The notes below the pieces were generated by a model that worked only from the letters and a program-made list of their open reading frames with translations, was not told the origin of the DNA and searched no databases. From NCBI GenBank assembly GCA_013265495.1, contig MU057989.1, forward strand, positions 1,939,513 to 2,003,512: a DNA stretch of 64,000 nt, in the 5' to 3' direction. This DNA comes from Vicugna vicugna. Its lineage: Eukaryota. This document shows, piece by piece, positions 33,744 through 64,000 of the stretch. The first letter of the stretch is position 1. Every line of letters begins with the position of its first letter. The position numbers and the translations under genes were made by a program.

Positions 33744-33944
<201 letters not shown>

Positions 33945-39479: not shown

Positions 39480-40120
39480 GAGTGGGCGTGGACGCTGGGC
39501 CCAGTCCCCGCCCACCTCCCCGGCCAGGCCTGCGTGCCCACCCTCCGGCTCTCACCGATCACCGCGCCGACCCAGTCGTTCTTCAACCTGAAGGACAGTG
39601 GCGGTTCCTGACAACCAGCGACCCCAGGCTGCTGAAGGCCACAGGGGTCCCTCCAGCCGCCGACTCTGCCGCGCCTATGGCCTCCTCGCCCTCTCGGGTT
39701 CGTCTCCTCCGCCGACCTCCTTTCCAGAGCCCGAGACACTGCCTCGCCCCGCCCGGAAGCAACGACCCAAGAGGAGGCGTTGGCGCCTGCTTCCTGCCTG
39801 GACATGGTACCGGGAAGAAGATCCGGCACGTCCGACGTCGTTGCTGCTGCAGCCCTCGTCCGACCGACGTCGGGCTAGTCCACTAGGGCAACCACGCAGC
39901 TGCAAATCGAGGGCTGCGTGAGCCCCGCCCCGCCCCGCCCGCCCAGCCACGCGTCCATTGGTGGACGAGGCGCCATGGGCGGGGCCTGCGGGGCTCGCCC
40001 AATCCGCGCCATTTCTGCAGCGCGCAGGTTGGCGGAGACCGTGCGCCGCCCTTGCTCTTCCCCGGGGCTTTTGCACTTTGCCGCTCTGAACTCCTTTCTG
40101 TACCTACTTCCCGGGGCTCC
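39480..40120 (-). promoter_or_regulatory. DDX43: DDX43 CpG-island promoter
   Basis: CpG-rich; tandem GC boxes ~39923-39944; CCAAT ~39999. Confidence 0.8.
39556..39805 (-). CDS. DDX43: DDX43 (HAGE) DEAD-box helicase exon 1
   Basis: ATG 39805: MSRQEAGANASSWVVASGR...PLSFRLKNDWVGAVI G|gtgag; 250 nt; total spliced CDS 1932 nt, 643 aa. Confidence 0.95.
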
Positions 40121-41928
40121 AAAGCATCTCCTAATGTGATTCGTAAGCATCAGTCACTTTTAACACTGCGACCCAGTACAACACAAAAATTTGAAACAAA
40201 AGGTTGACAAAACAGTACTTACACCACCGCTACGTGAACAACACTTGGATGTAGTTACGCCTATATTCGTTTGTTAAATGTTGACTGTAATCCACAAGAT
40301 TGGGTGACCTGCAGTTTAAAAATCCCTGAACCGATAGATGCTGCTTCAAGGCTTCAAACAACACTTGACCTGAATGTTTGCTGTAATTTTAGGGCTAGTG
40401 AATAAATTGAATAAATACCTGAAGCAATCCTGAGATTGTAGGCTTGGCTCTGTGGCTAGACATGTTACTCCAGGGATGCAAGCCAGAAGGGAGTGACCCT
40501 GTTTTGATTAGGATCGTGGAATTGTCTGAACAAATCTCAGTCTGATCATCTATCTAGCATAGTAGACATCTATTATACTGCTAGACATGTGGTCTGTGCC
40601 CAGGATTGAAAAAAAAGTACTACTCCTGGTCCATCGGGGTTGAACGGGTTAACTCACATGGAATTAACTGTAACTCAATAAATCCTGGATTTACAGTGTT
40701 ATTGGAGCACCCAGGAAACACATAAAAAGATGAGTATTTTATATATTTAATCTCCATTTTCTAATCCTTACTGATATGGATTGTATTGATGATCTTTAAA
40801 AAGGAATTTTATTGGATTAGACTTGCCAATATTTTGTTGAGGATATTTGCATCTATGTTCACGAGAAATAGTTATGTACTTTATTTGCAATGTCTTTGTT
40901 TGGTTTTGGTATTAGGACAACGCCGGCCTCATAAAATGAGTTAGGAAGTTTTCCCTCTTCTATTTTTTAGAAGCTATTGTAGAAAATTGGTATACTTTCT
41001 TAAACGTATCTTAGAATTCACCAGTGAACACATCTGGGCCTGATTCTTTATGTTTTACAAGTTGTTAATTACGGATTTAATTTCTTTAATAAATGTCTTA
41101 TATGTAGTTCGTCTAATTTCTTCATACGTGAGTTTTGGCAGATTTCAAGGACTTGGTCCATTTCATCTAAATTATCAAACTTGTGGAGATTGACTTGTTC
41201 ATAGCATTCTTTTATTATCTTTTTAAAGTCCATGGGATCTGTAGTGAAGTCCCATCTTTCATTTCTGATACAAGTAATTTGTGTCTTCTCTTTTTTTTCT
41301 TAGTTTAGCCTGGCTAGAAGTGTATTAATTTTATTCAAAGAACTAGCTTTTGGTCTCACTGATTTTCTCTATTAATTTCCTGTTTTCAATTTCATTGATT
41401 TCTGCTCTAATTTGTATTATGTCTTTTCTTTTGCTTACTTAGGATTTAATTTGCTCTTCTTTTTCTAATTTCCTAAGGTAGAAACTTTGATGACCGATTC
41501 TACATCTTTCAAAACAAGAAAGACAAAGAGGGGTCTTGTCACTGGGCAAGGCCTCATGGGGTCCTGCTTGGTTTCACTATCTTTTAATTTCTCTTGAGAT
41601 TTCTTCTTTGACCCATGTGTTATTTAGAAGTGTGTTCTTTAATCTCTAAGTATCTGGGGATTTTCCAGCTATCTTTCTGGTGATTGCTGATTCAAAATTA
41701 ATGAGGTCTGAGAACATACATTATATGACTTCTATGCTTTTAAATTTGTTAAAGTGTGTTTATGGCCCCACATATGGTCTATCTTGGTGAATATTCCATG
41801 TAAGCTTGAGAAGAATGTGTATGCTGTTCTTGTTGGATGAAGCAGTCTGTAGATGTCCATTATAACCAGTCGATTGATGGTGCTGTTGAGTTCAATTATG
41901 TCCTTACTGATTTTCTGCCTGCTAGATA

Positions 41929-42553
41929 TGAGACAGGAAGGAAGGGGGCAGGGCACAGCCATTAAAGAAATGACACAGAAATTAGCACCAAGATGGCAGA
42001 AAAGTCAGCTCCCAATAGACCTGGAGGCCCAAGATGGCAGGAGAGCTGACCTTCAGTGGACCTTGAGCTTCATTATACACATTGTAATGTATTAGCATGG
42101 TGAATGACACACATACAGGTGCCACTACAGTTCCAAGGCTAACCATGGAAGGTCAAAGAGAGGGCATGGCCCAATTCCTGGGAATCCCGGCCCCTTCCTC
42201 AAAGTAGTTGGACTAATCCTGTCACTTCTTAGCATATAAAAACCAGCAACACCACACCTCATGGCCTCTCTTGCTCCCTCACCTTCCGAGATGGCCCACA
42301 CTCTGTATATGGAGTGTGTATCTCCTTTTCTTTAAACTAAACACCCAAGCCCATACCTCTTGGCCTTTCTCTCGCCTTCTGAGATGGCCTGCTCTCTCTC
42401 TATGGAGTGTACATCTCTTTAAATAAATCTGCTTTTAATCAACCACGGCTCACTCTTGAATTCTTTCCTTACTTGGTGGGTCACATCCCAGGGACTCGCC
42501 TGGGGCCTGGGACATGGCCACTCTCTCATGCCCCACATTTTTTTCCTGTATCA
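41929..42553 (+). mobile_element. ERV1-class solo LTR (625 bp)
   Basis: TG...CA ends; 4-bp TSD GATA/GATC; TATAAAA ~42235; AATAAA ~42422. Confidence 0.85.
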
Positions 42554-42863
42554 GATCAGTCCATTTCTGACAGAGGGTTGTTGAAGTCTCCAGCCACAAC
42601 TGTGGAGTCATCTGTCTCTCCTTGTAGTTCTATCAGTTTAGCCTCACATATTTTGATGCTTTGTTGTTAGGCATACACATGTTAAGGTTTGTTATGGCTT
42701 TTGGAGAACTGAGCCCTTTATTATAAAAATGTCCCTCTTTACTCTTGCTAATTTTCCTGGCTCTGAAGTCCAGCATTCTTAGTCTTCTCATGGACTTTTA
42801 ATAGTCTATAGATTTCTAAAGGCTTTTAATAGTCTTTCTCTATCCTTTTACTTTTAATTTATA

Positions 42864-43373
42864 TGAAACAGAGCAGGACCCTACAAAAGACTTTCCCTAT
42901 CCCCTGTTTGTTTGTAGGATGTATCTGTGAATTCTTCTGGAGGAACTAAGACCCATACTCAGGTGGAAGATGTAACTTCAGGCTGAGTACAAGATTCCTG
43001 AAGTACCACCCTGTTACCGCCTCACCACTGACTAATCAGAAGAAAGTCACACACCCTGCAGCTCTCATCCCAAATTCAAATCCCAATGAAGAACTTATAC
43101 AGGTCCTTATCAAACCCTTCTAAAAGATTAAAGAGGAGGGAACACTCCCAAACTCATTCTATGAAGCCACCACCACTCTGATGCCAAAACCAGACAAAGA
43201 TACTACTTAAAACTCTTCCTCCAAAACTATCAGGGAGTTCAGCTGTTCTGAGCATGAGCCACCCATTCTCCTTGCTCGGCCCTGCAATAAACCTCTCTCA
43301 ACTCCAAACTCTTGACCTTTTGGTTTGTCTGGTCTCACCGTGCATTGGGCTCATGAACTTGGGTTCAGCAACT
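42864..43373 (+). mobile_element. Solo LTR with internal L1 ORF2 fragment
   Basis: Starts TGAAACAGAGCAGGACCC; gcaataaa signal; ends gggttcagcaac; L1 resumes after it. Confidence 0.7.
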
Positions 43374-44184
43374 TGTATATGTCTTTATATTTAAAACAAG
43401 CTTCTAGTAGATAACATATTGTTGGGTCTTGTTTCTTGATCCACTCTGACTTTTAGATGGTATACTTGGACCATTAACATTAAAGTGATGACTGAAATAG
43501 TTGGATTAATGTCTGCCGTATTTGCTACTGTTCTCTATTTGTTGCCCTTGTTTTTTATTCCTGTTTTTTCCTTCCATTCTTTTCAACCTCTGTGGTTTTA
43601 ATTGTGCAAATTGATTATTTTTCTTCTCCTATCTTAGCACAACAATTACATTGTTTATTTTTAAATTGAGTTGTTTTATTACTGCATTTTAAGGGTTCAC
43701 TGTACACTTCATATACAAATCCTTTTTCAGAAATGTGTTTTGCAAACAGTTCCTTCATGTCTGTGGCTTGTCTTTTTATTCTCTTAGCAGTGTCTTTGAC
43801 AAAGCAGTTTTAAATTTTAAGTAGTGTCCTGCTTTCTGAAGAATTTTGTTCAGTTTATTCTGCCATACAAAGGTGAATTCTACCAAAAATTTAAGGAAGA
43901 AATACCAATGCTCTAAAATCTCTTCCAGAAAGTAGAAGAGGGAATACTTCCTAACCCAGTCTGTGAGGCCAAGAGTGAGCGCTAAGGTCAGCTATGGACT
44001 TTGGGTGGTAATGGTGTGCAGATGTGGGTTTATCATAGTAACAAGTGTACCAGTACGGTGAGGGATGTTGATGGTGAGGGAGGTCCTGTGTTGGGGGATG
44101 GGGGGAATAAATGAGGAATATATAGGAAATCTCTGTACTTTCTGCTCAATTTTGCTGTGCACTTAAAACTGCTCTATAAAAGTC

Positions 44185-44305
44185 TTTTGTGGGGGTAATT
44201 GGGTTTATTTATTTAATTATTTCTCTAATGGAGGGACTGGGGATTGAACCTAGGACTTCGTGCATGCTAAGCATGCACTCTACCACTCGAGCTACACCCT
44301 ACCCC
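44185..44305 (-). mobile_element. vic-1-like SINE
   Basis: SINE core; taaaagtctttt/taaagtctttt flanks. Confidence 0.85.
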
Positions 44306-46124
44306 TGTAAAGTCTTTTTTTTTTTTAAAGAAGAGTTTTGTGTCTGTCCAGCTTCCTTTTGTTTTGTTTTTAATTGGATCAGCTAATTCCTTTCCCTTGG
44401 GCAGCTGATTAGCAAAAGACAACATTCTGATGTTGTTTTTTCACTTGGTGAGAGGTGGTGACGAAAGGCACATGTGAGATGTTACTTCTAAGCAATATGA
44501 GTCCTTGTACTTTTCTGTGTTTTAAATTATTCATAAAATAGAGCAAAATGCATCCCCTGCCCAATCTGTGACACTAAGCCTTTGGCATAACCAGTCAGGA
44601 CTTAAAAGGGTGTTCACTACTTAAAAGTAGAAAATCCAGTGTGGCTGTGGGCTTTAAGGTCCAGTCTATCACATTTCCCCCAGACATGGACGGAAAAGTT
44701 AATAAAAAGGGTGAGTTCACAGGGACTTTGACCTGAGAGCCCCTGGAGGGTACACTTGCTTTTTGCAGACCCCAAAGGCCTCACTGGCTCTGGAGCAGGG
44801 CAGGGACTTGGCTTGCCCGGAAGGCAGAGGCTGATCTAGCCCCGGGCTGGGCCGCAGCTCCGTGTGCCCTGCACCCCCTAACCCAGAAGCCGCGCCCGCC
44901 TCTTCCCGCTGCCATCCGGGCTTGGATGACCCTTGATGCTCCTGTGTCCCCAGGCTCCAGAGACGACACCTCCTCAGTCCCAGCCGGGCCACGGCCCTCT
45001 CGCGTTCACAGGATGGCGGGGTTCCCAGAGGTGGATGGGGTCGCCTCTGCGCATCTCCAGGGACCCCAGCCAGTAGGAGCCACTGTCCCACCACGGGCGG
45101 CAAACACCCTCCACCCTCACCTCTGCTCCCAAAGCAGCGGGACTTTACGCACCGACCAAGATGTGCCTTCAGTGGGAATCGTGATTCTGGAAATCAGACC
45201 CTGTGGGTTTAACTTCTCCCCTGGTCCAGGGAGGAAGGCACTGTCTCAGGTAGGGTCCCGACAACCGGCCAGGCTCGTCTTCTCACTTAATTCTTGGAAA
45301 ACTCCTGTGAAGTGAGGTGGGTGTCCACGCTTCACAGACGGAGAAACTCAGGTCACGGAGGCCCTGCCCTCGGGACGCCAGGGGTTGCGATGCTGAAGCC
45401 GGGCGTGTCCCGCGGCTCCGCTTTGCCTCTCCAGGCCCCAGGGGAGCACTTCCCGGAGGAGGTGGGTAGAGAAAGGGGGAGGGGAGGAGGAGGATGTCAG
45501 CCTCCAGCTGCGATTCATGTGCCAAGAAAAACTACCGCCCACTCAATTAGGCTAGCTAGCTGTAGTTTTAAGATCATTATAGAACTGAGTTCACTGCACA
45601 CAATTTCAAAAAATAAAAACATAACCTAGAGATAAATTTATTCCCTCCAAATTTTTTTCCAGGGAAATTTCTGGAAGTTCTGGAAATTAGAAGCCATATA
45701 TTGTTTTGCATGCTGACTTTTCCCCTTAAATTTTATAAAATAGGCATTTCCCCGTGTTATACATGTAATTATTTATTATATACGTTGTTCTCTGTTTATA
45801 ATTTGTTTTTACCTTCATATTTTGGGGGCGGTGCATAGGGGAATTTTTTTCCAACTAAAAGAAGTTTTAATTCTAATTTAGTAAAAACTATTACTGCCTT
45901 TTTGTTTTGTTTTCAATGGTGACAGCATTTGGGCCATGATCTGGAGATTCTCTTTAGCCTCGGATTATATAAACATTGATCTAGACATTCTTCCTGCACT
46001 GCTCTTTAAAAGATGCAAGAATATTTATTCTCTTTCTGCAAAACTCTTATATCAGACAGGCATTCACATTTATTTCAAAATATTCAGTGTCCCAGCACTG
46101 TTTTGAAATGTTTCACTGTATTAT

Positions 46125-46150
46125 ACACACACACACACACACACACACAC
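46125..46150 (+). repeat. (CA)n microsatellite
   Basis: About 13 AC units. Confidence 0.9.
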
Positions 46151-46769
46151 GTTTCTGGAAGTTTATAGATGTGCCACAAAGGCAAGGAGATTGAGAAGGA
46201 CTTGTTTGTATTTTTCAAGGATGACTTTGGCTGCTTTATGGAGAACAGACTTTAGAGGGGGAAGATTTTGATCTGATGGGAAAGTTGTAACTTAAGTGTC
46301 TGTAAGGCCATGAGGAAGCCATTACAGAGGCAGGGGTGATGGCTTGGACTAGTTTCTTAGCTGTGGAGGCCATGAGAGGACCTCCTACTTGAGATACATC
46401 TTGAAGGTAGAGAAGATAGGATTTGTTTATGGTGTGAAATGTGTCACAAAAAAGTCAGTTTGGTGAATGGCGGTGACCTTTACTGAACAGGAGAGAACAT
46501 GGTAAGGGTAGATGTGGGTAGCAGGTTAAATGACAGCCCTATTATAGTGCAGGGGCCAAGGCGGGAGTTGAATAATACTAAATAAACATTTTACTTCTCT
46601 GTTATTCTCTGTGGTTTGATACAAATAAAGCTGAAAAAAAAAGCAATCTCTAAAGAGAATGAAATGTGTTTGTGATCTTTGAATAGTAATTTCATATCTG
46701 AGGTTCTCCCATTCCTAATGGAAATATTCATAACATGCAAAGAAGTTTTCTGTATGCAGATAATAAAAC

Positions 46770-47250
46770 AACTAATATTAATTGAGTGTTTGCTATTGGC
46801 TTGGCACAATCAAGGGCTTTAAATGTATTAACTAATTTAATCCTTACAACTCTAGGATGGAGGTACTATTATCCCCCCCCCCAGTTTATAGATGAAAATT
46901 GAAGAACTGAGAGACATCTTGTCCAAAGTTACACACTGCTAGTTAGTGGTAAGCAGTGAGTGTAGCCAGAGGGAAAGGGGAGTGGGGCAGGCTCCACAAT
47001 TCAGAGCACCTAGTTACTATCATCCGCAGAGTGTCCGAGGCGGGTCAAATGTGCCAAGTATATCATCGTGTACAGTGGAAATAATTTTTATTCAGCTAGG
47101 AAAATACTATGAGCCAGAAACTGTGCTGATCTCTTTGCTTGAAATCAATATATTCACTCTCCAGTACAATCCTATGAGTATTACCATTTTTTATTGTCCA
47201 TGTTTTACAGATGAGGAAGTCGAGGAACAGAGAAGTTAAATACACTGACT
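46770..47250. mobile_element. MIR fragments
   Basis: atttaatccttacaac...gtactattatccc...tttacagatgaggaa. Confidence 0.65.
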
Positions 47251-47384
47251 AGGAAGATGACTCTCTTTTGCCAACATACTTAGCGCAGATATTCTGGACT
47301 CTAGTTCTTTACGGAGTGTATAATTCAGTAATTTTAGAAATCATTACTGTAATGTAACTTTAGGACATGTCCATCACCCCCAGA

Positions 47385-48077: not shown

Positions 48078-48337
48078 AAACTTTCTGCCCATCTGTAGTC
48101 ACTCCCATTTGTAGCCGCAGGTCATCTACTTTCTGTCTCTATGGAGAAAGAAAGATTTTTGTATAAATGGAATTAGACAATATTTATCCTTTTGTGTCTG
48201 GGTTCCTTCACTTAGTATACTGTTTTCGGGGTTCATCCATGCTATAGCATGCACCAATATTTCCTTCTTTTTAATTGCCAAATGGTGTCCCATTGTGTGA
48301 CTATGGTACATTTTATTTATTCATTAATTATTAATGG

Positions 48338-50529: not shown

Positions 50530-51800
50530 ACTTTTGGATACACTCTTACTTCCCAGCGAGGGGGCTGTTATAAACACAAGTCCCAAGTAAAAAGACAGAT
50601 TATGGAAGCCAAAGAAAATGCTTCAGCAGATCATTATGCCAAAGAAACCACTTTCACCAAGGTTATGATCCTATCTCAGCCTTCAGAGGATAAATTACAA
50701 GAGGACATCATAAAATATCAATATTTAGCCTCTGACTCTAAAAAGGAAGAATGAGAAAGTCTGGCTGTATCCTTTGCTCAGATCATCCCTGGCACTCTCA
50801 AGATGGCCATTTGGTGGTTCTAAATGATTTCAAATGGCTATTTGTTAAATTTTCCCATGAAACTACCCATTATGGAATAGACAAGTTGGTTACTATCTTA
50901 AATCAACATTGATGGAGAAACTTTAAAAAGAAAGCTAAGGCTATCTTCAGATTGTGTGCCACCTGTCAACAACATAATCCTGAAAAAACCGTGAAGGTGG
51001 GACATGGCCAGGAACCAAAGCCTCAAGGGCCCTCTGAAGGCCTTCAGATAGGCTATCCAGCTTTCACCCTCCAAGCGTGTGACTATGTTTAGTTACCGTT
51101 ATGTCTAGTTTCAGAATGAAGTAAAGCATTTTCTTGCTGAAAAGTTACAGCCTTTCTAGTCATTGGGAAGCTGCGTGATTTTGTGCTTCTAACCGGGGAA
51201 CATCCCAACTTTCATATCAAGTGACTGAGGCACACACTTCATGGAAATAGCTATAAAAGAAGTTTGCAAGGTGTTATCTCTTACTCAAAAATTACAATTC
51301 CTGGAAAGGTTGAAAAGATCAATGACATCCTTAAATTAAAATTAGCAAAACTTTCAGAAACTCTTGAGTTCACTTGGCTGGAAGTACTCCCACTAGCCCT
51401 TATGGCCATTCAGTCTCCTCCCTCAAGGACGCACTGGTCATCCTTCTGTGGATTGGTAGCTGGAAGGCCCATGTGTTTAGAGATTTCCTTCCCAATGCTA
51501 GACTCTGCTGACTGCATGCAGGCAGGGCAAAATGTTGCAAGGGCCTCATGTCCTATACCAGTCCTATCACCAACACGTTAAGACCACCCTCCCACAGCAT
51601 CTTCCTAAATTGTCTCTTCATGATCCTCAACCAGGAGATTTCATCTACAGGAAGAAATACCAGAAAAAAACTGCTCCTTAATCTTGTTGGAAGGGACTTT
51701 ATCAGATGCTGTTAACAAGTGAACAGTGAAACTCCAAGGAGCCAATACTTGGGTTCATGTTTCACAACCAAAAAAAGCAATTCACAGTTGCACACAATTG
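50530..51800 (+). mobile_element. Degenerate ERV (class I-like) pol integrase remnant
   Basis: HETTHYG...CATCQQHNP (HHCC), ISSD*GTHF, GKVEKINDILKLKL...WLEVLPLAL...GRPM, LQGANTWVHVS; many stops and frameshifts. Confidence 0.85.
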
Positions 51801-52579: not shown

Positions 52580-53930
52580 ACTTTTTAAAATTGAAGTACA
52601 GTTGATGAACAATATTATAAAAGTTACAGGTTTGCAATATAGTGCAATATAGGTCATCGTTTATATACTCCATTTATAGTTATTATAAAATATTGACTAT
52701 ATTCCCCATGTTGTACAATACATCTTTGTAGCTTATTTTATACCTAGTAGTTTGTACCTCTTAATCTCCTACCCCTATATATTGCCCCTAACTCTTCCAT
52801 CTCCTCACTGGTAACCACTGGTGTATCCTCTATATCTGTGAGTTTCTGTTTTGTTATATTCACTAGCTTGTTGTGCTTCTTACATTTCACATCTAAGTGA
52901 TATCATACTTTTGCCTTTCTCTGACTTGCTTCTCTTGGCATAATACCCTCCAAGTCCTTCCATGTTGCTGCAAATGGCAACATTTCCTTCTTTGTTATGG
53001 CTGAGCAGTAGTCCACCGTGTGTGTATCTCATACATTTTCTCTATTCATTCATCTGTTGGTGGACACTTGGGCTGCTTCCATATCTTGGCAATTGTAAGT
53101 AATGCTCCTATGAACACTGGAGTGGATATATCTTTTTGAATTAGTGTTTTTGTTTCCTTCAGATATATACCCAGGAGTAGAATTGCTGGGTCATATGGTA
53201 GTTCTATTTTTAGTTTTTGAGAAACCTCCATACTGTTTTCTAGTGGCTGCACCAATTTACATTCCCATAAACAGTGTACGAGGGTTCCCTTTTCTCCATA
53301 TTCTCACCAATATTTATTATTTGTTGTCTTTTTGATGATGGCCATCCTGGCAGGTGTGGAGTGATCTTACTGTGATTTTGATTTGCATTTCTCCGATTAG
53401 TGAGATTGAACATCTTTTCATGTGTCTCTTGGCCATCTGCACTTCCTCTTTGGAAAAATGTCTATTCAGGTCTTCTGCCCATTTTAAATCAGGTTTGTTT
53501 TTGATGTTGAGTTGTATGGGCTGTTTATATATTTTGGATATTAACCCCTTAACGATCATGGCATTTGCAAATATTTTCTCCCATTCAGTAGGGTATCTTT
53601 TCATTTTGTTGATGGTCCCTTCTGCTGTGCAAAAACTTTTAATTAGATTCTATTTGTTTACTTTGTTTTTATTTCCTTTGCTTTCAGAGACAGATCCAAA
53701 AAAATATTGCTGCAATTTATGTCAAAGAGTGTTCTACCTATGTTTCCCTCTAGGAGTTTTAGAGTATCCAATCTTAAACTGAAGTCTTTAATCCATTTTG
53801 AGTTTATTTTAGTTTATGGTGTTAGAGAATGCTCTAATTTCATTATTTTACATGTAGCTGTCCAGTTTTCCCAGCATCACTTGTTGAAGAGACTGTCTTC
53901 TCTCCACTGAATATTCTTGCCTCCTTTGCT
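52580..53930 (-). mobile_element. L1 ORF2 C-terminus + 3'UTR
   Basis: Peptides EWEKIFAN and KIELPYDPAILLLGIY in the ORF track. Confidence 0.9.
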
Positions 53931-53974
53931 GTGACATACATTTTGATGTTATTTGGTGCAAAAAAAAAGTGTTC

Positions 53975-54165: not shown

Positions 54166-55175
54166 ATAGTGTTTGTTGTGCTTTGTAACATTTTTCATTG
54201 TATAGAGATTTCATCTTAAGAACTGAAGTCAAAAGAAGTGAAGTCGTGAAGAAAAAGGCTTCTCAATGGGAAATTACAAAACCAATTCACTCACATACTT
54301 CACTGACTGAACTCAAATCCCCTCAGACTGGCTCCTCCAGAGTTAAGCAGAGGAAATGAAAACAGGCCACCCACTGTCTTCTTGGTAGTATTTTTCTTTT
54401 AAATTTTATAGGGTGCAGAGTGTTTAAATACCTTGCGTTTGGTCACACAGCTAGAAGATGTTGGAGTAAGTATTCAAATCATGCCTCTCTCCCCCACCAG
54501 AGTCCAGGCAGGAAGCCTTGGAGGTATAAAGTGACAAAACTGATTCCTCCTGGCAAATTCTGCTAAATCCTGAAAAGCTTGCAATTCTGTTCTGACGCTG
54601 GCATGGATCAACTAATAAAATTCAAGGCTTGTCAAATGCAGAAAACTCAGTATGGGGTTTCCTCATGAAGTAAAACCCCAAATGGCTATACTTCCAAAAT
54701 AAAACTAAAGCAGAAGTAAACGTTGCCAGGCAGATGGAAAGGGCAAAGGAAAGTTTCTTGACCTTGTCTTCCTCAAGTATGTGTGGACCTAATAATCAAC
54801 TACCACAAACCAGCCTTGTGTCTTATTCATGCTACATGTAGGAGTCTGAAAAATGTCAGGGAGATAATTTGAAGAGGACTCAAGTCGGAGATGTATCCTT
54901 AAGAGAATGGCTCAAGCTAAAAATGATCAGTTTCTAAAAAGATGAAATTATATCCCTACATTGTGCCCAATTAAAAAAAATTAACCCCAGATGATTCAAG
55001 GATTTAAACATTAGGATAGAAACGCCAGCATTCTTAGCGGAAAGGAGAGTGGACGTCTCTAGGCCTCAGGGTGGGGAAGGATTTCTTAAGCAGGACAAGG
55101 AGTGCACTTACCATGAAGGCTGATGAATCTGACTATATTAAAATTAAGAATTTTATTCATCAAAAGACACCTTGT

Positions 55176-55560
55176 GGGAGGGTATAGCTCAGTGGTAGAG
55201 TGTGTGCTTAGCATGCACAAGGTTCTGGGTTCAATTCTCAGTACCTCCATTAAAAGATAAATAAATACCCCACTTGTTGGCATGTGAAGCCACCGAGCCC
55301 ATAAAAACTGGCAACACCATGCCTCGCGGCCTCTCTCACTCCCTCGTCTTCCAAGATGGCCCGCACTCTGTCTCTGGAGTGTGTATCTACCTTTACTTTA
55401 ACCTGCGCACCCAACCCCCACACCTCATGGCCTTTCTCTTGCCTTCTGAAACAGCCTGCAGTCTATGTAGTATGTATCTCTCTAAATCTATCTTTAATTA
55501 AAAAAAGATAAATAAATAAATAAATAAACTCAATGACCTCCCCCCCAAAACAAACAAAAG
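55176..55560 (+). mobile_element. vic-1-like SINE interrupted by an LTR retrocopy
   Basis: Head 55176-55250; tail resumes after 55503; caaaagacacctt flanks. Confidence 0.85.
55268..55502 (+). mobile_element. Retrocopy of LTR U3-R 3' end (copy B)
   Basis: Homologous to ~42220-42440 and to copy A; 16-bp TSD AAAAGATAAATAAATA. Confidence 0.8.
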
Positions 55561-56149
55561 ACACCTTAAAGAAGGTGAAAAGCAATTTAAACTGAAGATA
55601 TTCACAGTACATACAATTGAAAAAAAATTAGTAAGAGACTGACTTTATATCCCCAAGACTTTTTTTTACAATATGCATGCATTAGTATGTTGATTTTAAC
55701 ATTAAATTGAAGAAATAAAAATATCCAGTAAAGCTAGATCCATTATCTCCTCTCAGATAATTGTTGGAGCCTAGATGTAATGAGGGAATTCAGTACATTA
55801 AAATTATCCCTTTTATGTAAATGACTGAAACTCTCCATTTAAAGGATTTTTTAAAAATCATAACTAATTTTAAGAGCAAAACTGTTTGCATATCAGATGC
55901 CATTTACTCTAAAACAACTGCCAAAGAATATTTCTAGAAACGCACTGGAGAAAGTGTAAGAACATACATGGGTGAGACACACCGACTTCAGGACATGATT
56001 CCCTGCGGGGAGGGAAAAGAAAGACGCTTTAGTGATAGGCATTTTAAAGGAGAGAGGAGTGAGGCAAATGTGGGAAAATGCTAACATTTTATTAAGTGAG
56101 CGGGTCGTGGTACACAACTTTTCTGAATGTGTGAAATCTTTCATAGTTT

Positions 56150-56285
56150 AAATTGGGGTGGGGGGTCCTGGGGGGAGGTAATTAGGTTGGCTTATTTATT
56201 TATTTAACAGAAGTACTGGGGCTTGAACCCAGGGCCTCATGCATGCTTAGCACGCACTCTACCACTGAGCTGTCCCCTCCCTCCT
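56150..56285 (-). mobile_element. vic-1-like SINE
   Basis: SINE core; tcatagtttaa flanks. Confidence 0.85.
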
Positions 56286-56955
56286 CATAGTTTAAGTTCT
56301 TTAACATTAAGAACACTGGGAAGAAGTGTGCATCAACACTAGTTGTCTCAGGATGCTGGACACAAACAGGATTTGTCTACACTGGCTCGTTTGCTAGAAT
56401 GACCAACTCTAACATTTATATTTTAAAACACGACACATCTATTCAAATGATTTTGATTTGGTAACAAACCAGAGAATCAGAAGGCAGATCACAGGTTGCA
56501 GAAGAGACAAGCTGTAGACTCCATGAGCCTGTGCTCGGCCTGCCCCACCCCAACCTGCAGAAACCTGTTGTTTTTCTCTGTGTTCCCTTTTATCTGTGTG
56601 CCAGTGCCCTGTCTTTACTGCCTCCGTAATCTTTTAATATCTAAAAAGGGTAGTTGCTCTGTCATTCTAACTTTCAGAATTTGGGAGAATGATAGCTATG
56701 TACTTGTTGATAAGAGCTTGTATCACGCACCAGGCCCTGTGCCAAGCACCTAAATAGGATGGTTGGAGCATAAGGAACTTGCTGAGTCCCAAAGCCAGGC
56801 CATGGGGCTGGGTGAGATTTGAACCACACATTGATTCCAGGATCTTACCTCTATGCTATACTTTCCCCATGTGCGTTTATTTTTCTCCACAGCTGAATTT
56901 AGGCTCCTTTTCATTGTTTTTAATTTTTGTAATTTTTAATTTTAATTTTTTTTCT

Positions 56956-57144
56956 TTAGGGTTAGGGTTAGCGTTAGGAGTAGGTGTTAGGGCTAGGGTT
57001 AGGGCTAAGGGTTTAGGTTAGGCTTCATGTTAGGGTTAGGGTTAGGGCTTGGGCTAGGTTTAAGGCTAGGGTTAGGGTAAGGGTTTAGCGTTAGCGTGAG
57101 AGTTAGGGTTAGGGTTAGGGTTTAGCATTTAGGGGTAGGGTTAG
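56956..57144 (+). repeat. Interstitial telomeric sequence, degenerate (TTAGGG)n, ~31 units
   Basis: ttagggttagggttagcgttagg...gggttag. Confidence 0.95.
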
Positions 57145-59569
57145 TCTCATTGTCTTTATCTTTTTTAAGAGGAATTAGAATACCCTTCCTAATTTGTGAA
57201 GAATCCACAGTATTTGCTATCTGTGAGGGACAAGACAACTTGTTTTCCCTAACAAGTTGCTAAAATAGAAATATCTACTAGTGCCACGCTCGATATAAGA
57301 ATATCACTGTTGATTTTTCTGACAATAAACATACTTACATCCTCCATTTTTTAATACTATTTTTTTATTTTTACATTTTTTATTGATTCATAATCATTTT
57401 ACAGTGTTGTGTTACATCCTCCATTTTTGAAGAGTAAGGCGACATACAAAGTATTAAAGTACTCAAAAAATCTCACTGCCCATACATTCTCTTCGAGTAG
57501 CTTTCCATTGCACTAAATACTTTTGTATAATTTTAGTATTTTGTTGATTCATACAAAGTATTCTGTTCAGACCAAAGACATGCCCATCCACAGTGTAAAA
57601 AGATTCCTCAAACCCTACAAAGGGAACAGATCCTTTCAGCCAGCACCCAAAGAACGGCCATGACCAGCACTTTTTTCTGACTTTTTTCAGCACTGCTTTT
57701 CTGACTTAAATATAAATGGAATCATTGTGAGATTTATCCATGTTGCCAGCAGTTATAGTTCCACTCTCTGAATAAATCATAATTTAGTTTTCCATTCTGT
57801 TGATGTACATTTTAGTTGTTTCCCATTTAGACCTGCAATGAATCGGGCTACTGTGAAAATCCCTGTACGTGACTTCAGTGCATACATATATGCATTTCCA
57901 CTGAGTATTTGTCTACACTGGAATTGCTGAGTTAGAGGGTGTACGTAAAGTCACATTGCCAAGGTGCCTGAATCGATTTACCTTCCTTTCAGCAGGGTGT
58001 GGGACTTCCAGTTGCTCTGCATCTTTGTCAATGGTCGATTTTTATTTTAGAGACTAGGGATTAGCACTATTGCACTGCACTTCTAAAAAATACAATCACT
58101 TAACTGGTTACACAATATAAAATTGGGAGTGTACATTTCCTTCTTTGGTAAATTTGCAAGTTGTGCCATCATCACCACAAACCAATTTTTGAATATTTCC
58201 GTCACTTCAGTAAGTTCCCTTTTGCCTGTTTGCAGTCAGTCATCTCTACTGTCTCCAGCCCCAGGCAATCAGCCTGCTTTCAGTCTCCGCAAAGTTGTCT
58301 TTTCTGAACATCTAATTTAAGTAGAATAATATAAAGTGCCATCTTTTGCATCTGGCTTCTTTATCTAGTTGGAGTATCTCTGCTTTTTGATTGGAGTATT
58401 TAGCCCATTCTACTTTAATGTAAGTATCGTAAGATTGGATTTCTGTCTGCCATTTTGCTTTATTTCCTATCATGTCTTTTTTCTTTTCCTCCTTCATTAT
58501 TTTGTGTTGGATAAATTTTTGTATACCATTTTGACTCCTATTTTTAAAGTGATTTTTTTTTCCTCGGGGTTGCCTTAGGGATGATAGAAATCTTAACTCA
58601 TTACATGCTGTTTCTGATTAATGGAAAGGAGGGAAGGAGGAAAAAGAAACAGTTGAATAAATGGAAACACTAGGTTCTTGGATAGCAGAGTCCAGTGTTG
58701 CATGGATGTGGTCAGCTCTTCCCAGAACTCAATGCAATTTCAGTTATAATCACAACTGCTTTTTTAGGGGCTGAGGCTGTAGGTTGAGAGTCTTCCTTAA
58801 AGTCCGATTATACAGATGCTTCAGAAGGACTCGGGAAGGCTGTAAATAAGGTTTTTCCTAGATGTCTAGTGAAAAATTCCGAGATAAATAGTGCAAATGT
58901 GTATTAACTAAACTGAAGTACAACAGCCTGTCACATATGCTCCACAGCGAGACTCTCAAGATTTCCCAGAGAATCCATAAACCTCTGAAACTTTTCTCTG
59001 ATACCTTCAGTGAGTGAAGAGTGAGCCTATTCAAAGACACTGTCCACATTGAATTATTTGCTGCCAACCAGCTTCCCCTGCTCCCAAAGTGTGCAGGCAG
59101 GAGTCACTGTCCTCACGCTGTCTGTGGCTTTCTCTCTCCCAGGCTTACAGTTCCTCACGGTTAGATCTAGGTTATCTATTTTCGGCAAAAATACTAGATA
59201 AATCATATTGTGTCTTTCTCAGTGCTTCACGTCACGTGGCATGGGGTCTGTTTTTGTCCCACTCAGTGAGATTGTTAAAGGCCTTGTTTTGATCAAAAGT
59301 GTGGAGTCGAGAAATTTTGGTGAAGGAAGTAGTGCCAACCTGGTGTAACTGAAATGGAGCGGCAGGAAGACCTCGGACAGGCTATCCCGTGTGCTCCGTA
59401 GCTGAACTTCAAAAGTTTTCCACAGATTCTAGCAATGATGAAACTTTGATGACTCTGGTCAGCCTATTCAAAAGCTGTTCAGACTGACCTCTTTACTAGC
59501 CCTTGATCATTTTACCTGCAAAAATGTACAAACGAGAGTAGAGTTGCTGTTTCCAGACTTGTGTAGTTT

Positions 59570-60110
59570 TTTTTTTCTTTTAAAAATTGAGGTCTAGTTG
59601 ATTCACAGTATTATATTAGTTTCAGGTGTACAACATAATGATTTACTATTTTTATAGATTGTACTCCATTTATAGTTATTGAAAATGGTGGCTGTATTTT
59701 CCTGTGCTGTACAATAGATCCTTGTTGCTCACCTATTTTATACACAGTGCTTTGTACCTCTTAATCTCCTGCCCTCCGCCCCTCCCCCTTCCTTCTCCCC
59801 ACTGGGAACCACTAGTTCGCTATGTCTGTGAGTCTGTTTCTGTTTTGTTATATATATTCATTTATTTTTTAGATTCTATATATGTGATAACAGTATTTGT
59901 CTAACTTATTTTACTAAGCATAATACTCTAGGTCCATCCACGTTGTTGCAAATGGAAGAATTTCTTACAGTCGAGTAATATTTCATTCTCTCTCTATATA
60001 TGCCATATCTTTATCCATTTATCTGTCGGTGGACACTCAGGTTGCTTCCATATCTTGGCTGTTGTAAATAGTGCTGCTCTGAACATCGAGGTTCATGTGT
60101 CTTTCGAATT
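59570..60110 (-). mobile_element. L1 3' end
   Basis: ggtgtacaacataatg...ttgcaaatgg...ggttgcttccatatcttggctgttgtaaatagtgctgc. Confidence 0.85.
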
Positions 60111-60581
60111 AGAGGAGACTTCTGTAGTTTTTGCCTCTGTTCCTGGACAACTTACACTGATGGCCTTGGGCCTGTTTCCAATTTTCCTATCTAATGCATC
60201 TTCTTTTAATTCATAAAATACACTCTTTAGTGCATATATAATATACATGTAGTTTAAAGAATAAAATGAACACTAGAGCATACTTTAGTAGAATAAAATC
60301 AATATTTTTGAGAAGGCATTTGTATAGACACATTTTCCATGAACCAGTTTGTTATGCATTTTAATAAATTGCTTCATTGGGAAAACACATGACCAAGACT
60401 GCCAACTGAACAGTGAGAGTAGGCTAGTCCTCTAAGGTATTAAATTATTCTATGCAGCTACATAGTTGGAAGTGGGCTACATAGGAAAAAATGACACACT
60501 TGGATGTAAAACTGATTAGTACTAGCAAGTCTGGGTGAGGATGGAGAACAGCTTTCCTGCCATGCAGTGGGAAGATCCGTT

Positions 60582-60856
60582 GGTACGGCTACACCATTGT
60601 AGGGCAGTTTAGCAGTGTGGTTTCTAAAGGGGCTCCACGTCCCTAGGAAGCTCTCCTAGGGATATAGTCCAGCATGGACACAATGATGCCAGTGGAAATT
60701 CAGTGCAAAGGTACGGCTACACCATTGTAGGGCAATTTAGCAGTGTGGTTTTTAAAGGGGCTCGTTCTGTAACCCAGCCGTTCCACATCCCTAGGAAGCT
60801 CCCCTAGGGATATAGTCCAGCATGGACACAATGATGCCAGTGGAAATTCAGTGCAA
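60582..60856 (+). repeat. Tandem duplication of ~128/147 bp
   Basis: ggtacggctacaccattgtagggca...ggaaattcagtgcaa at 60582-60708 and 60710-60856. Confidence 0.92.
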
Positions 60857-62359
60857 CAGTTCGTAATCGAGTAATTTGGGAAAGAAACCAAACAACCAGT
60901 GGTGAAGGAAGGGGCTAAATCAAACTGTCCCCATCCTGAGGGAAATCAAGCTGCTAGAAGGTGAAAAAGGTATATCCAAAAATGTAAAAGTACATGTTAA
61001 ACTGTTTAAAGTGATTTCCTGTAAGACAGGAAGTTTGAGAGGGCAGACATGGAGGCCTGGGGACTTTGATTTGGGTGAAGACTCGGCATTGGTTTGGCAC
61101 TGGTTTATGCCCTGCTTGGAGAGGAAATTAAGTTTCTTTAAAAATCGATACTTTATGGGCATAAGGAATTTTACATAGAGGTTCGTAACACCTAAATGCT
61201 TGTATTTAAAGTTCAACCTCCCTTCTTTTCCTGAGTCCCTCCAGCCAAGGAGGTTTACTATATTTCACCACTTTCTTTCATAAACTGGTTTCAGACATGT
61301 CCATGTGATGTGTGTGCATATAGAGGGCATTTCTGTCTAAGTTTCAGAATAGTCAGAGACTCCTAAATATTCCCTTGGCTTGCTACCTGCTGCTCCTTTC
61401 TTATAAAGGAGAGAATAGGACATTCTGGTCAAGTGGGTACTACTTAGGTGGGGTAACACAAAACAAACCAGAAAAATATTGCTGAGTCTTAATTCTACTC
61501 TGCTGTAGCCTCTAAACATTGAGTCTGCATTGATTTTTAGTCTTGTGTTTAAGTTTCACTCACCTCAGCTATTTTTAGAAGAGGCAAGGAGAAGCCTATT
61601 AACTATTGGTAAATTCAGCTCGCACCTTTATTTTCCTTATTATAAACTAAAGACTTATTTAAAATTGGAGGGATCATTAGGGGACACACCACTCCCTGCT
61701 CTTTAAAGTTAGGTTTTGTTGAATTTTTTTTCTAGTTTTTATTTGCTTCCCAATGATTTCCTTGAAAGGATTAAAGATTAACAGCAAGATATGATAGATG
61801 ACAGTTTTATCAAGCAATATACTATGGAAGACACAGCTGGTGGTGTCCAGGTCCACTTACAAATATGACTTTCCTGCAGACAGAACTAGCAATACTTGCA
61901 AATGTGGAACACGTGCTCAACAAAATTCAAACAACCTAATAGAACATTGTGCCTTCTGTTCATCTTTGGGGCAGGTACTGATCATAACTTATTTTCAGTT
62001 ATCTGTGAAATACTTCAAGTGTTTACTGCCCTGTTCATTCCCCCCAGTTTTACTGTTTGTTCAGGATCTTTTGGGTTTTGTTTTCGTTTTCCCTGAGGTA
62101 TAATTTACCTACAATAAAGCTTACACTTTTTAGCTGATGGTTCAAGATTTGACAAATGTATACGGTTGCATAATCACCAACTAATCAAGCTGTAGACAGT
62201 CTGTTAACCCCAAGAGGCTCTCTCTTGGCCCTTTGCAGACAATTGGCTCCTTCCAACCCCAAGGTTTTGGTGAATTTTTAAAACAAAAGGTTCCGTAACA
62301 CTGAATTGATTCACGTTGTTTTTGATCCTAGCACCCAGCTGTTGGCAGTTTACTTCCCT

Positions 62360-63440
62360 CATCTAGCGACGGTGCCAGGACCGGGAGTCAGACCGATAGA
62401 GGTGCGAATCACCCCTGCCATGGAGCAGCCCCGCTGCCCCCGCTTTTCCGGTTCCCATCCCCCGACCCCGCCGTCAGTTGCCCGAGGGGAAGTCCGGGGC
62501 TTGCAGCGCCGAGAAACGCCAGGCCCGGGTTGAAACCAAGTTTTCGCTTCCCAGGTGATCTTGAGTGGAGACATCACAGTCTTGGACAGGTTTCCCGGAG
62601 AAGATGGGGCCAAGAGGCCTTTGACCTTCCAAAGCCGGATGCGCGCGGTGAAGGGGCACAAGGGAAGCACCTGGTCGGCCAGAAATCCAAAAGCTCCCCC
62701 CGGCCTGAGTGCGAGTCAGCCCAGAGCACTCGTGCCTCTCCCCCACTTCTCCCTGCCACTTAACAGCCGTTAGGGAAATTCGGCTCTTAATAGAACTCTG
62801 GGTTCGTGTTTGCAAACATTTTAATGGGGTGGTGGGGGGGAGGGGACACCAAAACCAACCCACACACCGTTTTCCTTCTTTTCAGCTTCTGCATCAGAAT
62901 CAGAACTGAGAATAGAGCTCCAGACAGGGGCTTCCACTTTGACCTTGCCTGGCGCTCTTGTTCCTGGGCCCCAGATGCCTTCAAAACCTGGTAACCGGGC
63001 TCTGGGCGGTAGCTTCGGGGAGGCGCTGGGCCGCCGCCTCCCTGACAGGCTCCTTCTCCGAGCCTGGAAGAAGAGCAGTGTGAGACCACGCCTGTGTTCC
63101 AAATACTCTCTCCTCAAAAGGAGTCAGCAGTACGGGCTGCCGGGGTTGGCCTGGAATCTGAGAGTACGAGGTCAGTTAGGTCCTCTAGATCCCTTGCAGA
63201 GAAGAACCCCCTCCCCGCCAAGGCGAACTAAGAGGATGAGACCGCTGCCCAGGCACAGCCAGGAGGCATCAAGATCCCCTGCCCAGGGAACCTTTCACTG
63301 TCCGGGGTCCCGTACTTGGCGGTGCAGGGGCCTGTTCGCAAGACTTCGCAGGTGCACCCGGCCCGAGCGCCTCATCTGGATCCTCCCACTTCCAGGTGCG
63401 CTGGTAGAGGGCGGAGCTCCGGGCTTGAGCCTACGACTGG
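62360..63440. promoter_or_regulatory. CpG-rich region around the KHDC3L remnant
   Basis: Elevated GC/CpG relative to flanks. Confidence 0.55.
62785..63063 (-). pseudogene. KHDC3L: KHDC3L (ECAT1/FILIA) last exon, collapsed, plus 3'UTR; upstream KH exons not found
   Basis: ctcttcttccag|GC TCG GAG AAG: (G/S)SEKEPVREAAAQRLPEATAQSPVTRF* (TGA 62983-62981) resembles recalled human exon 3 GSGK...VREAGTQR...DPVTRL*; following tgaaggcatct...aaagtggaagccc...gcaaacacgaacccagagttcta resembles the recalled 3'UTR; strand and position fit synteny. Confidence 0.7.
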
Positions 63441-63955: not shown

Positions 63956-64000
63956 TAGCATGATTATATCTTCATTTCTTGATTTTTCTTCCAGCTTAAA

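What the first reader, a model, noticed from the sequence alone, without database searches (positions are those of the whole stretch)
40120..62780. OOEP is missing from its syntenic slot; possible co-loss of the OOEP-KHDC3L module
Established: the human order is CGAS - DDX43 - OOEP - KHDC3L - DPPA5, with OOEP a few kb from the KHDC3L 3' end; here it would be on the + strand. Seen: both neighbours (DDX43 5' end, KHDC3L 3' exon) are present. I found no OOEP-like exon (RPWWFP, IPEMEW, EITVFGRP motifs) in the ORF track or by eye in this interval, which is almost all L1/LTR/ERV/SINE plus a telomeric array. OOEP (FLOPED) and KHDC3 (FILIA) are interacting SCMC proteins and Ooep-null female mice are infertile. 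Inference: joint loss would imply a remodelled maternal complex in camelids, or relocation of the genes. A by-eye negative is weak evidence.
Basis: partly seen in the sequence, partly recalled or inferred. Interest (0 to 1): 0.8.

Follow-up and report, generated by a model that had tools for sequence, protein, structure and literature searches.

The report
OOEP absent beside DDX43 in camelid
In this camelid genome the stretch between DDX43 and KHDC3L holds no trace of the maternal-effect gene OOEP and only a truncated KHDC3L copy, but the region is an old, badly assembled duplication, so the gene may lie in unassembled DNA instead of being lost.

Summary
Between the DDX43 5' exon (about 39.4-39.9 kb, minus strand) and a real KHDC3L exon 3 (62,981-63,063, minus strand) no OOEP coding sequence is detectable. 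I searched with Pfam MOEP19, a camelid OOEP, nine other OOEPs and an OOEP profile. Four whole-assembly searches also found none.

New points:
- The window's KHDC3L is a remnant. About 660 bp carrying exons 1-2 are deleted.
- The only copy that keeps exons 1-2 lies at the very start of another scaffold and has an in-frame TAG.
- The block from 54.8 kb onward exists in at least three old copies, about 76-84% identical, on gap-rich scaffolds.
- A database protein, P0033, whose KHDC3L half is identical to a Camelus ferus protein, carries an intact OOEP half. A camelid-wide loss is therefore unlikely.

Verdict: absence from the DDX43-adjacent slot is real. Loss from the genome is unproven. I put about 45% on OOEP lying in unassembled sequence beside the paralogous KHDC3L copy, and about 35% on a true lineage-specific co-loss with KHDC3L. 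Interest is moderate.

The parts
19871..20245 (+). CGAS last coding exon (context, left neighbour)
   Evidence: Mab-21_C, E 2.1e-29; ORF.
27576..39874 (-). DDX43 exons. The 5' exon ORF is 39,428-39,874, so the gene's 5' end faces the interval.
   Evidence: tblastn with the DDX43 retrocopy ORF of locus L009 gave 13 exon-sized hits from 27,576 to 39,640. Two ORFs match the DEAD domain. The exon-1 ORF is; its likeness to DDX43 is partly recalled.
40120..62780 (.). DDX43-KHDC3L interval with no detectable OOEP coding sequence on either strand
   Evidence: No N.
50847..51089 (+). Weak retroviral integrase-like fragment (observed only)
   Evidence: Integrase_H2C2 at E 0.0015 in the joined frame and E 0.033 for ORF 50,913-51,089. 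Both are below Pfam's cut-off.
52803..53928 (.). High-copy L1-like segment, repeated inside the window at 13.3-14.7 kb and 21.9-23.2 kb
   Evidence: Self-comparison. The L1 name is recalled from the ORF 53,317-53,649; Pfam gave no hit.
54803..56566 (+). Start of the block that exists in at least three old copies. It is 84% identical to C724:18,712-20,476 and 83% to C10018:11,391-12,703.
56956..57144 (+). Degenerate interstitial (TTAGGG)n array, about 31 units, 70% matches. It is an insertion relative to the paralogous copy.
   Evidence: TRF; sequence. In C10018 the flanks (matching window 56,573-56,928 and 57,147-57,354) abut with no array between them.
57150..59560 (.). Mostly low-copy DNA at the place where OOEP would be expected, 4-6 kb from the KHDC3L 3' end. 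It holds one old dispersed repeat at about 58,127-58,532.
   Evidence: Own-genome DNA search found 228 first-look candidates. All 40 scored lie in 57,150-57,530 or 58,127-58,532. The expected distance is recalled from the human locus.
59567..60112 (.). High-copy dispersed repeat (L1-like), 71-79% identical to copies on many scaffolds
60120..62440 (.). Low-copy DNA, collinear in pieces with the gap-rich scaffold C10018. It holds one low-copy repeat at 61,751-62,262.
   Evidence: Only 16 first-look candidates.
62981..63063 (-). KHDC3L exon 3 with stop codon. It has a 36-nt internal deletion relative to the C4059 copy.
   Evidence: Sequence. tblastn with P0012, E 4.5e-9. Alignment A4.
63064..63320 (-). 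KHDC3L intron-2 remnant. Together with exon 3 (window 63,013-63,320) it is 79.7% identical to C4059:89-393.
63321..63342 (-). Deletion junction. These 22 bp stand in place of C4059:394-1056, which carries the alternative 5' exon and exons 1-2 (the KH domain) of KHDC3L.
   Evidence: blastn blocks; alignment; exon positions on C4059.
63343..64000 (-). Upstream flank of the KHDC3L remnant. It is the start of a 4.4-kb block 80.7% identical to C4059:1057-5368, and runs out of the window.

Best explanation
The OOEP-KHDC3L end of the oocyte KH-gene cluster was copied several times in an ancestor of camelids. The blocks are now about 76-84% identical. The copies then degenerated differently.

The copy that stayed next to DDX43, which is the one in this window, lost OOEP completely. 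It also lost KHDC3L exons 1-2 through a deletion of about 660 bp, leaving only exon 3.

If a working OOEP still exists, it sits beside the paralogous KHDC3L copy (KHDC3L-B). In this assembly that copy lies at the first 1.1 kb of scaffold C4059, and its downstream flank is not assembled.

So 'missing from the syntenic slot' is a true feature of the sequence, while 'missing from the genome' is most likely an assembly drop-out.

Shown: absence from the slot and from the assembly, the deletion, the paralogous blocks, and an intact OOEP in a Camelus-like protein model fused to a KHDC3L paralog.

Inferred: that OOEP was part of the duplicated unit, that it now lies off the start of C4059, and the order of events.
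For: 1. No OOEP was found in 106.6 kb around the slot. The same searches do detect weaker relatives. The OOEP-like paralog at 75.0-75.7 kb (28-47% identity) scored E 0.27-0.97. The similarly old KHDC3L exon 3 scored E 4.5e-9 with a KHDC3L query. A decayed OOEP of that age should therefore have been seen, which points to removal by deletion and not by slow decay.

2. Paralogous blocks:
- Window 54,803-56,566 matches C724 (84%) and C10018 (83%).
- Window 62,433-63,028 matches C10018 (76%).
- Window 63,013-67,660 matches C4059 (80-81%).
- Window-coordinates 65,600-70,369 match C10018 (81%).
- Window-coordinates 71,375-81,455 match C724 (82-83%).
- The other copies are about 81% identical to each other.

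3. P0033 residues 7-111 are 105/105 identical to C. ferus P0012. Residues 123-227 match solved 'Oocyte-expressed protein homolog' chains at E 2.6e-36 and fall inside the OOEP group in a tree. Its invariant OOEP residues are kept.

4. The intron-2/exon-3 part of P0012 is 91.7% identical to C4059:66-209 but only 58.5% to the window copy. The first 22 residues of P0033 match C4059:1024-1089 at 91%. The Camelus gene that is joined to OOEP therefore corresponds to the C4059 copy, not the window copy.

5. C4059 starts 24 bp after that gene's stop codon. No other scaffold overlaps its first 1.1 kb.

6. The neighbourhood is poorly assembled. C10018 has 5,450 N in 30 kb, C4059 has 11,780 N in its first 30 kb, and C1192 has N runs from window-coordinate 87,952.
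Against: 1. A 1-2 kb unique gene that is entirely missing from a 2.03-Gb assembly is unusual. Four whole-assembly searches found nothing better than the OOEP-like paralog at 30-35% identity.

2. The retained KHDC3L-B copy carries an in-frame TAG in the KH domain. That fits decay of the whole OOEP/KHDC3L module in this lineage better than it fits a working relocated module.

3. Exon 2 of KHDC3L-B is only 67% identical to P0033. The orthology between the Camelus model and C4059 is therefore not clean.

KHDC3L and OOEP are convergent in human (recalled), so a same-strand fusion may itself reflect a draft-assembly error.

5. Neither sequenced paralogous flank (C10018, C724) contains OOEP, so there is no direct sign that OOEP was ever inside the duplicated unit.
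Confidence: 0.45

Rival explanations
1. True lineage-specific co-loss. In the clade this genome belongs to (closest to Vicugna pacos among named proteins), OOEP was deleted and KHDC3L became a pseudogene. The subcortical maternal complex would then work without this heterodimer, or with a substitute.
For: - No OOEP was found anywhere in the assembly with a camelid OOEP, a whale OOEP, the fused model or Pfam MOEP19.
- The slot itself is gap-free.
- 20 of 24 listed run rows, from 7 studies and 4 organism labels, hold 72-86% of the sampled 31-mers of window:55,000-63,400. The OOEP-less slot sequence is therefore shared across the clade.
- No KHDC3L copy is intact. The window copy has exon 3 only. 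C4059 has a TAG. C10018 showed only an exon-3-like piece. C516 holds a retrocopy-like fragment.
- The family is known for lineage losses: KHDC1 and DPPA5 are absent from ruminants and horse (PMC7226043, passages read).
Against: [quoted passage not shown]
- A Camelus-like model has an intact OOEP.
- The assembly breaks exactly where that model places OOEP.
- The single TAG could be an error or a polymorphism.
- The whole-genome tool is not exhaustive. One search missed the OOEP-like gene on C1192 that one search found.
Confidence: 0.35
2. Misassembly of the window. The 40-63 kb interval is a false join or a collapse, and the real sequence next to DDX43 contains OOEP.
For: Neighbouring scaffolds are fragmented and gap-rich. 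The read-laying test could not be run.
Against: - There is no N in the 64-kb window.
- The paralogous copies are only 76-84% identical, too different to be collapsed by an assembler (inference).
- 72-86% of the sampled words of 55.0-63.4 kb recur in 20 run rows from 7 studies.
- If OOEP were merely misplaced on another scaffold, the assembly-wide searches should have found it.
Confidence: 0.07
3. OOEP is present but changed beyond recognition. The divergent OOEP-like gene (here called 'L007-type', at window-coordinates 74,988-76,160, with further copies on C724 and C10560) would be the lineage's OOEP.
For: It is the best match to OOEP in the assembly, at 34-35% identity and E 5e-5 with whale OOEP. 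In a tree it groups with OOEPs on a long branch.
Against: The same subfamily exists in goat, sheep, reindeer and Camelus. Sheep has an ordinary OOEP (PMC4247878), and Camelus has one if P0033 is from Camelus. The gene is therefore an extra paralog, not the orthologue. It also lies on the far side of KHDC3L, head to head with it, not in the OOEP slot.
Confidence: 0.05

Closest known systems
Human/mouse OOEP (FLOPED, MOEP19) and KHDC3L/KHDC3 (FILIA, ECAT1) gene pair in the KHDC1/DPPA5/ECAT1/OOEP cluster (human 6q13)
   Same: The neighbours and orientation match: CGAS +, DDX43 -, then a KHDC3L piece on the - strand. The family lies in a single syntenic region, is restricted to eutherians and evolves fast (PMC4247878 and PMC5137016, passages read).
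   Different: There is no OOEP between DDX43 and KHDC3L. The KHDC3L here lacks its KH-domain exons. The block is multiplied into at least three old copies. The exact human gene order and distances are recalled, not taken from a call.
Lineage-specific absence of other members of the same family (KHDC1 and DPPA5 absent from ruminants and horse)
   Same: It would be the same kind of event, loss of a member of this rapidly evolving oocyte/embryo gene family in one mammalian lineage (PMC7226043, passages read).
   Different: The gene in question here is OOEP, a core maternal-complex component whose knockout makes female mice infertile (PMC4247878). I found no paper reporting its loss in any mammal, or mentioning it in camelids (searches; one search was swamped by unrelated hits).
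Duplication followed by reciprocal degeneration of copies (apparent gene relocation)
   Same: There are several old paralogous blocks, each with different parts deleted. The window copy lacks KHDC3L exons 1-2. C724 joins the 56.6-kb point directly to the 71.4-kb point. C4059 keeps KHDC3L exons 1-3.
   Different: The copy that should hold OOEP has not been seen, so the relocation is inferred from one fused protein model.
Short interstitial telomeric sequences inserted at repaired breaks
   Same: A degenerate (TTAGGG)n array of about 190 bp is present in one paralogous copy and absent from another, with intact flanks. The repair mechanism is recalled from the literature, not checked here.
   Different: It is not tied to the missing gene. 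The copy without the array has no extra sequence at that point.

Membership tests
OOEP (Pfam PF16005 MOEP19; 'oocyte-expressed protein homolog') | Exons coding the atypical KH-like domain (conserved ..PLVFYLEAWLA..FGPD..EW.SQALL..VEI.VFG.P.. core) inside the interval | tested here: not met
   0 MOEP19 hits. With the camelid OOEP query the best in-interval tblastn E was 1.3. Profile: best in-interval E 23 over 4,898 ORFs. Stop-tolerant frames: at most 0.7 bits. Ten OOEP queries: 0 of 4 hits in the interval.
OOEP (Pfam PF16005 MOEP19; 'oocyte-expressed protein homolog') | Any OOEP orthologue elsewhere in this assembly | tested here: not met
   PF16005 gave 13 matches from 17 candidates, none OOEP-type. 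P0033 gave 7 matches from 8 candidates. Its OOEP part gave 3 from 5. Whale OOEP gave 3 from 6. The best was always the OOEP-like paralog on C10560 at 30-35% identity. Caveat: the tool scores only first-look candidates and missed a split-exon paralog on C1192.
OOEP (Pfam PF16005 MOEP19; 'oocyte-expressed protein homolog') | Presence of OOEP in another camelid (tests whether the loss is camelid-wide) | tested here: inconclusive
   P0033 residues 123-227 match solved OOEP chains at E 2.6e-36. Residues 7-111 are identical to a Camelus ferus protein. No tool names the organism of P0033 itself (UniParc entry).
KHDC3L / FILIA (window copy) | N-terminal atypical KH (FILIA-N) domain coded by exons 1-2 | tested here: not met
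   C4059:394-1056, which carries these exons, has no counterpart in the window. 22 bp stand in its place at 63,321-63,342. No PF16005 hit on C1192.
KHDC3L / FILIA (window copy) | C-terminal exon 3 with splice acceptor and stop codon, on the strand expected from synteny | tested here: met
   62,981-63,063 (-). tblastn with P0012 gave E 4.5e-9.
KHDC3L / FILIA (copy on scaffold C4059) | Uninterrupted reading frame through the KH domain | tested here: not met
   There is an in-frame TAG in exon 2 (..VSQT*LHVSK..), where P0004, P0012 and P0033 have V. Whether this is fixed, polymorphic or a sequencing error was not testable.
Interstitial telomeric sequence | Head-to-tail TTAGGG units away from a chromosome end, present or absent between otherwise collinear copies | tested here: met
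   TRF found period 6, 30.7 copies, 70% matches. The array is absent between the abutting flanks in C10018.

The most novel reading that the evidence does not exclude
The South American camelid lineage has lost OOEP outright and has no intact KHDC3L. That would make it a natural double knockout of the OOEP-KHDC3L heterodimer of the subcortical maternal complex. The complex (NLRP5-TLE6-...) would then assemble without its bridging KH protein, or would use the divergent OOEP-derived paralog that lies 12 kb beyond the KHDC3L remnant.
Probability: 0.3. Interest if true: 0.75.

Novelty: new member of a known kind. Interest (0 to 1): 0.45.

Why it matters
OOEP is a core part of the subcortical maternal complex, and female mice without it are infertile (PMC4247878). 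A fertile mammalian lineage without OOEP, and without a working KHDC3L, would show that the complex can be rebuilt. It would also provide a natural system for asking what OOEP is needed for.

If instead the gene sits in an unassembled paralogous block, the finding is a caution for automated gene-loss calls in this cluster. Here the syntenic slot is truly empty, yet the gene may still exist elsewhere.

Either way, the camelid cluster turns out to be an old multi-copy duplication with differently decayed copies. I found no paper describing this.

Tried and rejected
1. The telomeric array as a scar of the OOEP deletion: rejected. In the paralogous scaffold C10018 the two flanks abut with nothing between them, so the array is a plain insertion.

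2. Locus L007 (C10560) as an OOEP retrocopy or relocated OOEP: rejected. It belongs to a separate subfamily shared with goat, sheep, reindeer and Camelus. It is OOEP-derived but on a long branch.

3. The ORF at C556:70,053-70,223 (L011; MOEP19 E 0.29) as OOEP: rejected. It has no similarity to any solved OOEP or KHDC3 chain.

4. Searching the genome with the OOEP alignment was not accepted by the tool. Single proteins were used instead.

Only 20 kb more was obtained. It showed GC-rich, gap-rich sequence and no homology of at least 700 bp to the window other than two 66%-identical matches to dispersed repeats.

7. Earlier notes of this scan held nothing.

8. Literature: no paper links OOEP with camelids. 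One search listed 2 irrelevant papers of 3. One search returned only camelid veterinary papers, none containing OOEP. One search found nothing on OOEP loss.

9. The last cluster look-ups found OOEPs of fox/dog, pig, horse, rhinoceros and meerkat, and four unnamed Logan fragments. None was a camelid.

10. The status of NLRP5, TLE6 and PADI6 was not attempted. No reference proteins were at hand, and orthology among their many paralogs could not be settled with these tools.

Full report
**Setting.** The window is G000:C1192:1,939,513-2,003,512, 32.7 kb from the end of a 2.04-Mb scaffold. The assembly has 2.03 Gb in 12,405 scaffolds. The window contains no N. CGAS lies on the + strand: its last exon, 19,871-20,245, matches Mab-21_C at E 2e-29. 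DDX43 lies on the - strand. Thirteen exon-sized tblastn hits from 27,576 to 39,640 were found with a DDX43 retrocopy ORF, two ORFs match the DEAD domain, and the 5' exon ORF is 39,428-39,874. Named proteins that match family members of this genome are camelid. The KHDC1-like exons differ at 1 of 92 residues from a Vicugna pacos protein and at 7 of 92 from a Camelus dromedarius one.

**The observation.** The right-hand neighbour is real. KHDC3L exon 3 lies at 62,981-63,063 on the - strand, with an AG acceptor and a TGA stop.

No OOEP reference could be typed, so I obtained one from the databases. P0033 is a 250-aa UniParc entry.
- Its residues 7-111 are 105/105 identical to Camelus ferus protein P0012.
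- Its residues 123-227 match solved 'Oocyte-expressed protein homolog' chains at E 2.6e-36.
- Its residues 21-122 match KHDC3/Filia chains.

A search of 1.84 billion representatives with P0033 gave 105 relatives. Among the 20 looked up are OOEPs named by their sources from Jaculus, Ctenodactylus, Galeopterus, Balaenoptera, Equus, Carlito, Mus, Vulpes/Canis and others.

With these references the slot is empty:
- tblastn with the camelid OOEP part gave a best in-interval E of 1.3.
- A profile of 16 OOEP rows against all 4,898 ORFs of at least 12 aa in the last 96.6 kb of the scaffold gave a best in-interval E of 23.
- Frames read through stops scored at most 0.7 bits in the interval.
- Ten OOEP queries against 106.6 kb gave four hits at E<=1, none in the interval.
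- Pfam gave no MOEP19 match on the + frames of 40-64 kb, or on 121 of the 232 ORFs of at least 45 aa.

The same searches pick up weaker things. The KH domain of DDX43 itself scored E 0.3. A 28-47% identical OOEP-like gene at 75.0-75.7 kb scored E 0.27-0.97. A KHDC3L query finds the equally old exon 3 at E 4.5e-9. A decayed OOEP exon of comparable age should therefore have been visible.

**The whole assembly.** Four searches found no OOEP:
- Pfam MOEP19: 13 matches from 17 candidates.
- P0033: 7 from 8.
- The OOEP part of P0033: 3 from 5.
- A whale OOEP: 3 from 6.

The best hit was always an OOEP-like gene copy on C10560 at 30-35% identity. The tool is not exhaustive: one search missed the split-exon copy of that same gene on C1192, which one search found.

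**KHDC3L.** The window copy is a remnant. Window 63,013-63,320 matches C4059:89-393 at 79.7% identity, and 63,343 onward matches C4059:1057-5368 at 80.7%. The 663 bp in between on C4059 are replaced by 22 bp in the window. Those 663 bp carry an alternative 5' exon and exons 1-2, that is, the whole KH domain.

C4059 is the only place in the assembly with those exons. Its gene has an in-frame TAG in exon 2, where three related proteins have valine. An exon-3-like piece also lies on C10018, and a retrocopy-like fragment lies on C516. The assembly therefore holds no intact KHDC3L.

**Architecture.** From 54,803 rightwards the window belongs to a block present in at least three copies:

| Window coordinates | Matching scaffold | Identity |
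|---|---|---|
| 54,803-56,566 | C724 | 84% |
| 54,803-56,091 | C10018 | 83% |
| 56,573-57,354 | C10018 | 77-86% |
| 62,433-63,028 | C10018 | 76% |
| 65,600-70,369 | C10018 | 81% |
| 71,375-81,455 | C724 | 82-83% |

The other copies are about 81% identical to each other. At this divergence an assembler would not collapse them (inference), so the window's structure is probably right.

The other copies sit on short, gap-rich scaffolds. C10018 has 5,450 N in 30 kb and C4059 has 11,780 N in its first 30 kb. None of the sequenced parts holds OOEP.

The place where OOEP would be expected is 57.15-62.44 kb, 4-6 kb from the KHDC3L 3' end by recall of the human locus. This stretch is mostly low-copy DNA. 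It has one old repeat at about 58.1-58.5 kb, an L1-like piece at 59,567-60,112 and a low-copy repeat at 61,751-62,262.

The (TTAGGG)n array at 56,956-57,144 is an insertion relative to C10018, whose flanks abut. It is not a scar of the missing gene.

**Where OOEP may be.** The intron-2/exon-3 part of P0012 is 91.7% identical to C4059:66-209 but only 58.5% to the window copy. The first 22 residues of P0033 match C4059:1024-1089 at 91%. The Camelus gene that a predictor joined to OOEP therefore corresponds to the C4059 copy.

On C4059 that gene reads towards base 1, and the scaffold starts 24 bp after its stop codon. The position predicted for OOEP is just off the scaffold, and no other scaffold overlaps it.

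Two points weigh against this. Exon 2 of the C4059 gene is only 67% identical to P0033. P0033 is also a fused prediction of unnamed origin.

**Independent data.** 20 of the 24 run rows listed hold 72-86% of the sampled 31-mers of window:55,000-63,400. They come from 7 studies under 4 organism labels. The best holder may be the source of the assembly itself. This shows that the slot sequence is shared in the clade.

**Reading.** The absence of OOEP from the DDX43-adjacent slot is real.
- Most likely (about 0.45): old duplication with differential decay. The slot copy lost OOEP and the KHDC3L exons by deletion, and any surviving OOEP lies beside KHDC3L-B in unassembled DNA.
- Main rival (about 0.35): true co-loss of OOEP and functional KHDC3L in this lineage. 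The TAG and the blank assembly-wide searches favour it. The essential role of Ooep in mouse (PMC4247878, passage) and the Camelus-like OOEP speak against it.
- Misassembly of the window: about 0.07.
- A diverged OOEP: about 0.05.

**Comparison with what is known.** The family is eutherian-specific, clustered and fast-evolving (PMC4247878 and PMC5137016, passages). KHDC1 and DPPA5 are absent from ruminants and horse (PMC7226043, passages). I found no paper on OOEP in camelids, or on OOEP loss in any mammal. Supplements were not consulted.

Noticed in passing
C1192 beyond the window: window-coordinates 74,988-75,116, 75,336-75,527 and 76,104-76,160 (+). Also C724:24,196-25,263 and C10560:2,196,346-2,196,909 (L007:1222-1785).: A divergent OOEP-derived paralog, rich in hydrophobic residues (..WFGVLLVVSAVPGCGVLIFIIG..). 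It has three exons with open frames on C1192 and C724, plus an intronless copy with a 188-codon open frame on C10560. Relatives exist in Camelus, goat, sheep and reindeer, and as part of a panda KHDC1 model. In a tree it joins the OOEP group on a very long branch.
   Followed up: partly
L009 = C1292:392,526-395,720. The open frame is L009:1-1899 (-).: An intronless DDX43 copy with a 633-codon open frame that runs to the end of the fetched locus. It is 48-94% identical per exon to the DDX43 exons in the window, so it may be an expressed retrogene.
   Followed up: no
window 56,956-57,144: A degenerate interstitial telomeric array that is absent from the paralogous copy on C10018, so it was inserted after the duplication (or removed precisely from the other copy).
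   Followed up: yes
C4623:14,812-15,102 (L004) and C9932:10,335-10,580 (L005): Two DPPA5-like exons on separate scaffolds. The frame is open on C4623 and has an in-frame TGA on C9932. The cluster continues on scaffolds other than C1192.
   Followed up: no
C556:77,308-77,833 (+); C6043:7,592,650-7,593,027; C7489:4,522,240-4,522,647: A KHDC1-like two-exon gene on C556, plus two intronless copies (126- and 136-codon open frames). The family has been retrocopied repeatedly.
   Followed up: no
C4059:6,000-40,000 and C1192 window-coordinates 84,300-87,740: C4059 is 55-67% GC with many N runs from 6 kb to at least 40 kb. The C1192 end carries a 3.4-kb internally repetitive stretch (65-76% self-identity) followed by N runs. 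These may be why the cluster is broken into scaffolds.
   Followed up: no
window 50,847-51,720 (+): Weak retroviral integrase-like matches (Integrase_H2C2 E 0.0015; MLVIN_C E 0.07), both below Pfam cut-offs. This looks like an old ERV fragment. It was observed only.
   Followed up: no
The genome search: The Pfam-family search of the whole genome did not report the OOEP-like split-exon copies on C1192 and C724, which local tblastn found. Blanks from that tool are weaker for short, diverged exons.
   Followed up: yes
P0061, P0082, P0098: Some OOEP relatives carry changes in otherwise conserved motifs (RPRWFP, VFGWP, a shortened C-terminal helix). P0061 is from a fin whale. OOEP may be decaying in other lineages.
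   Followed up: no
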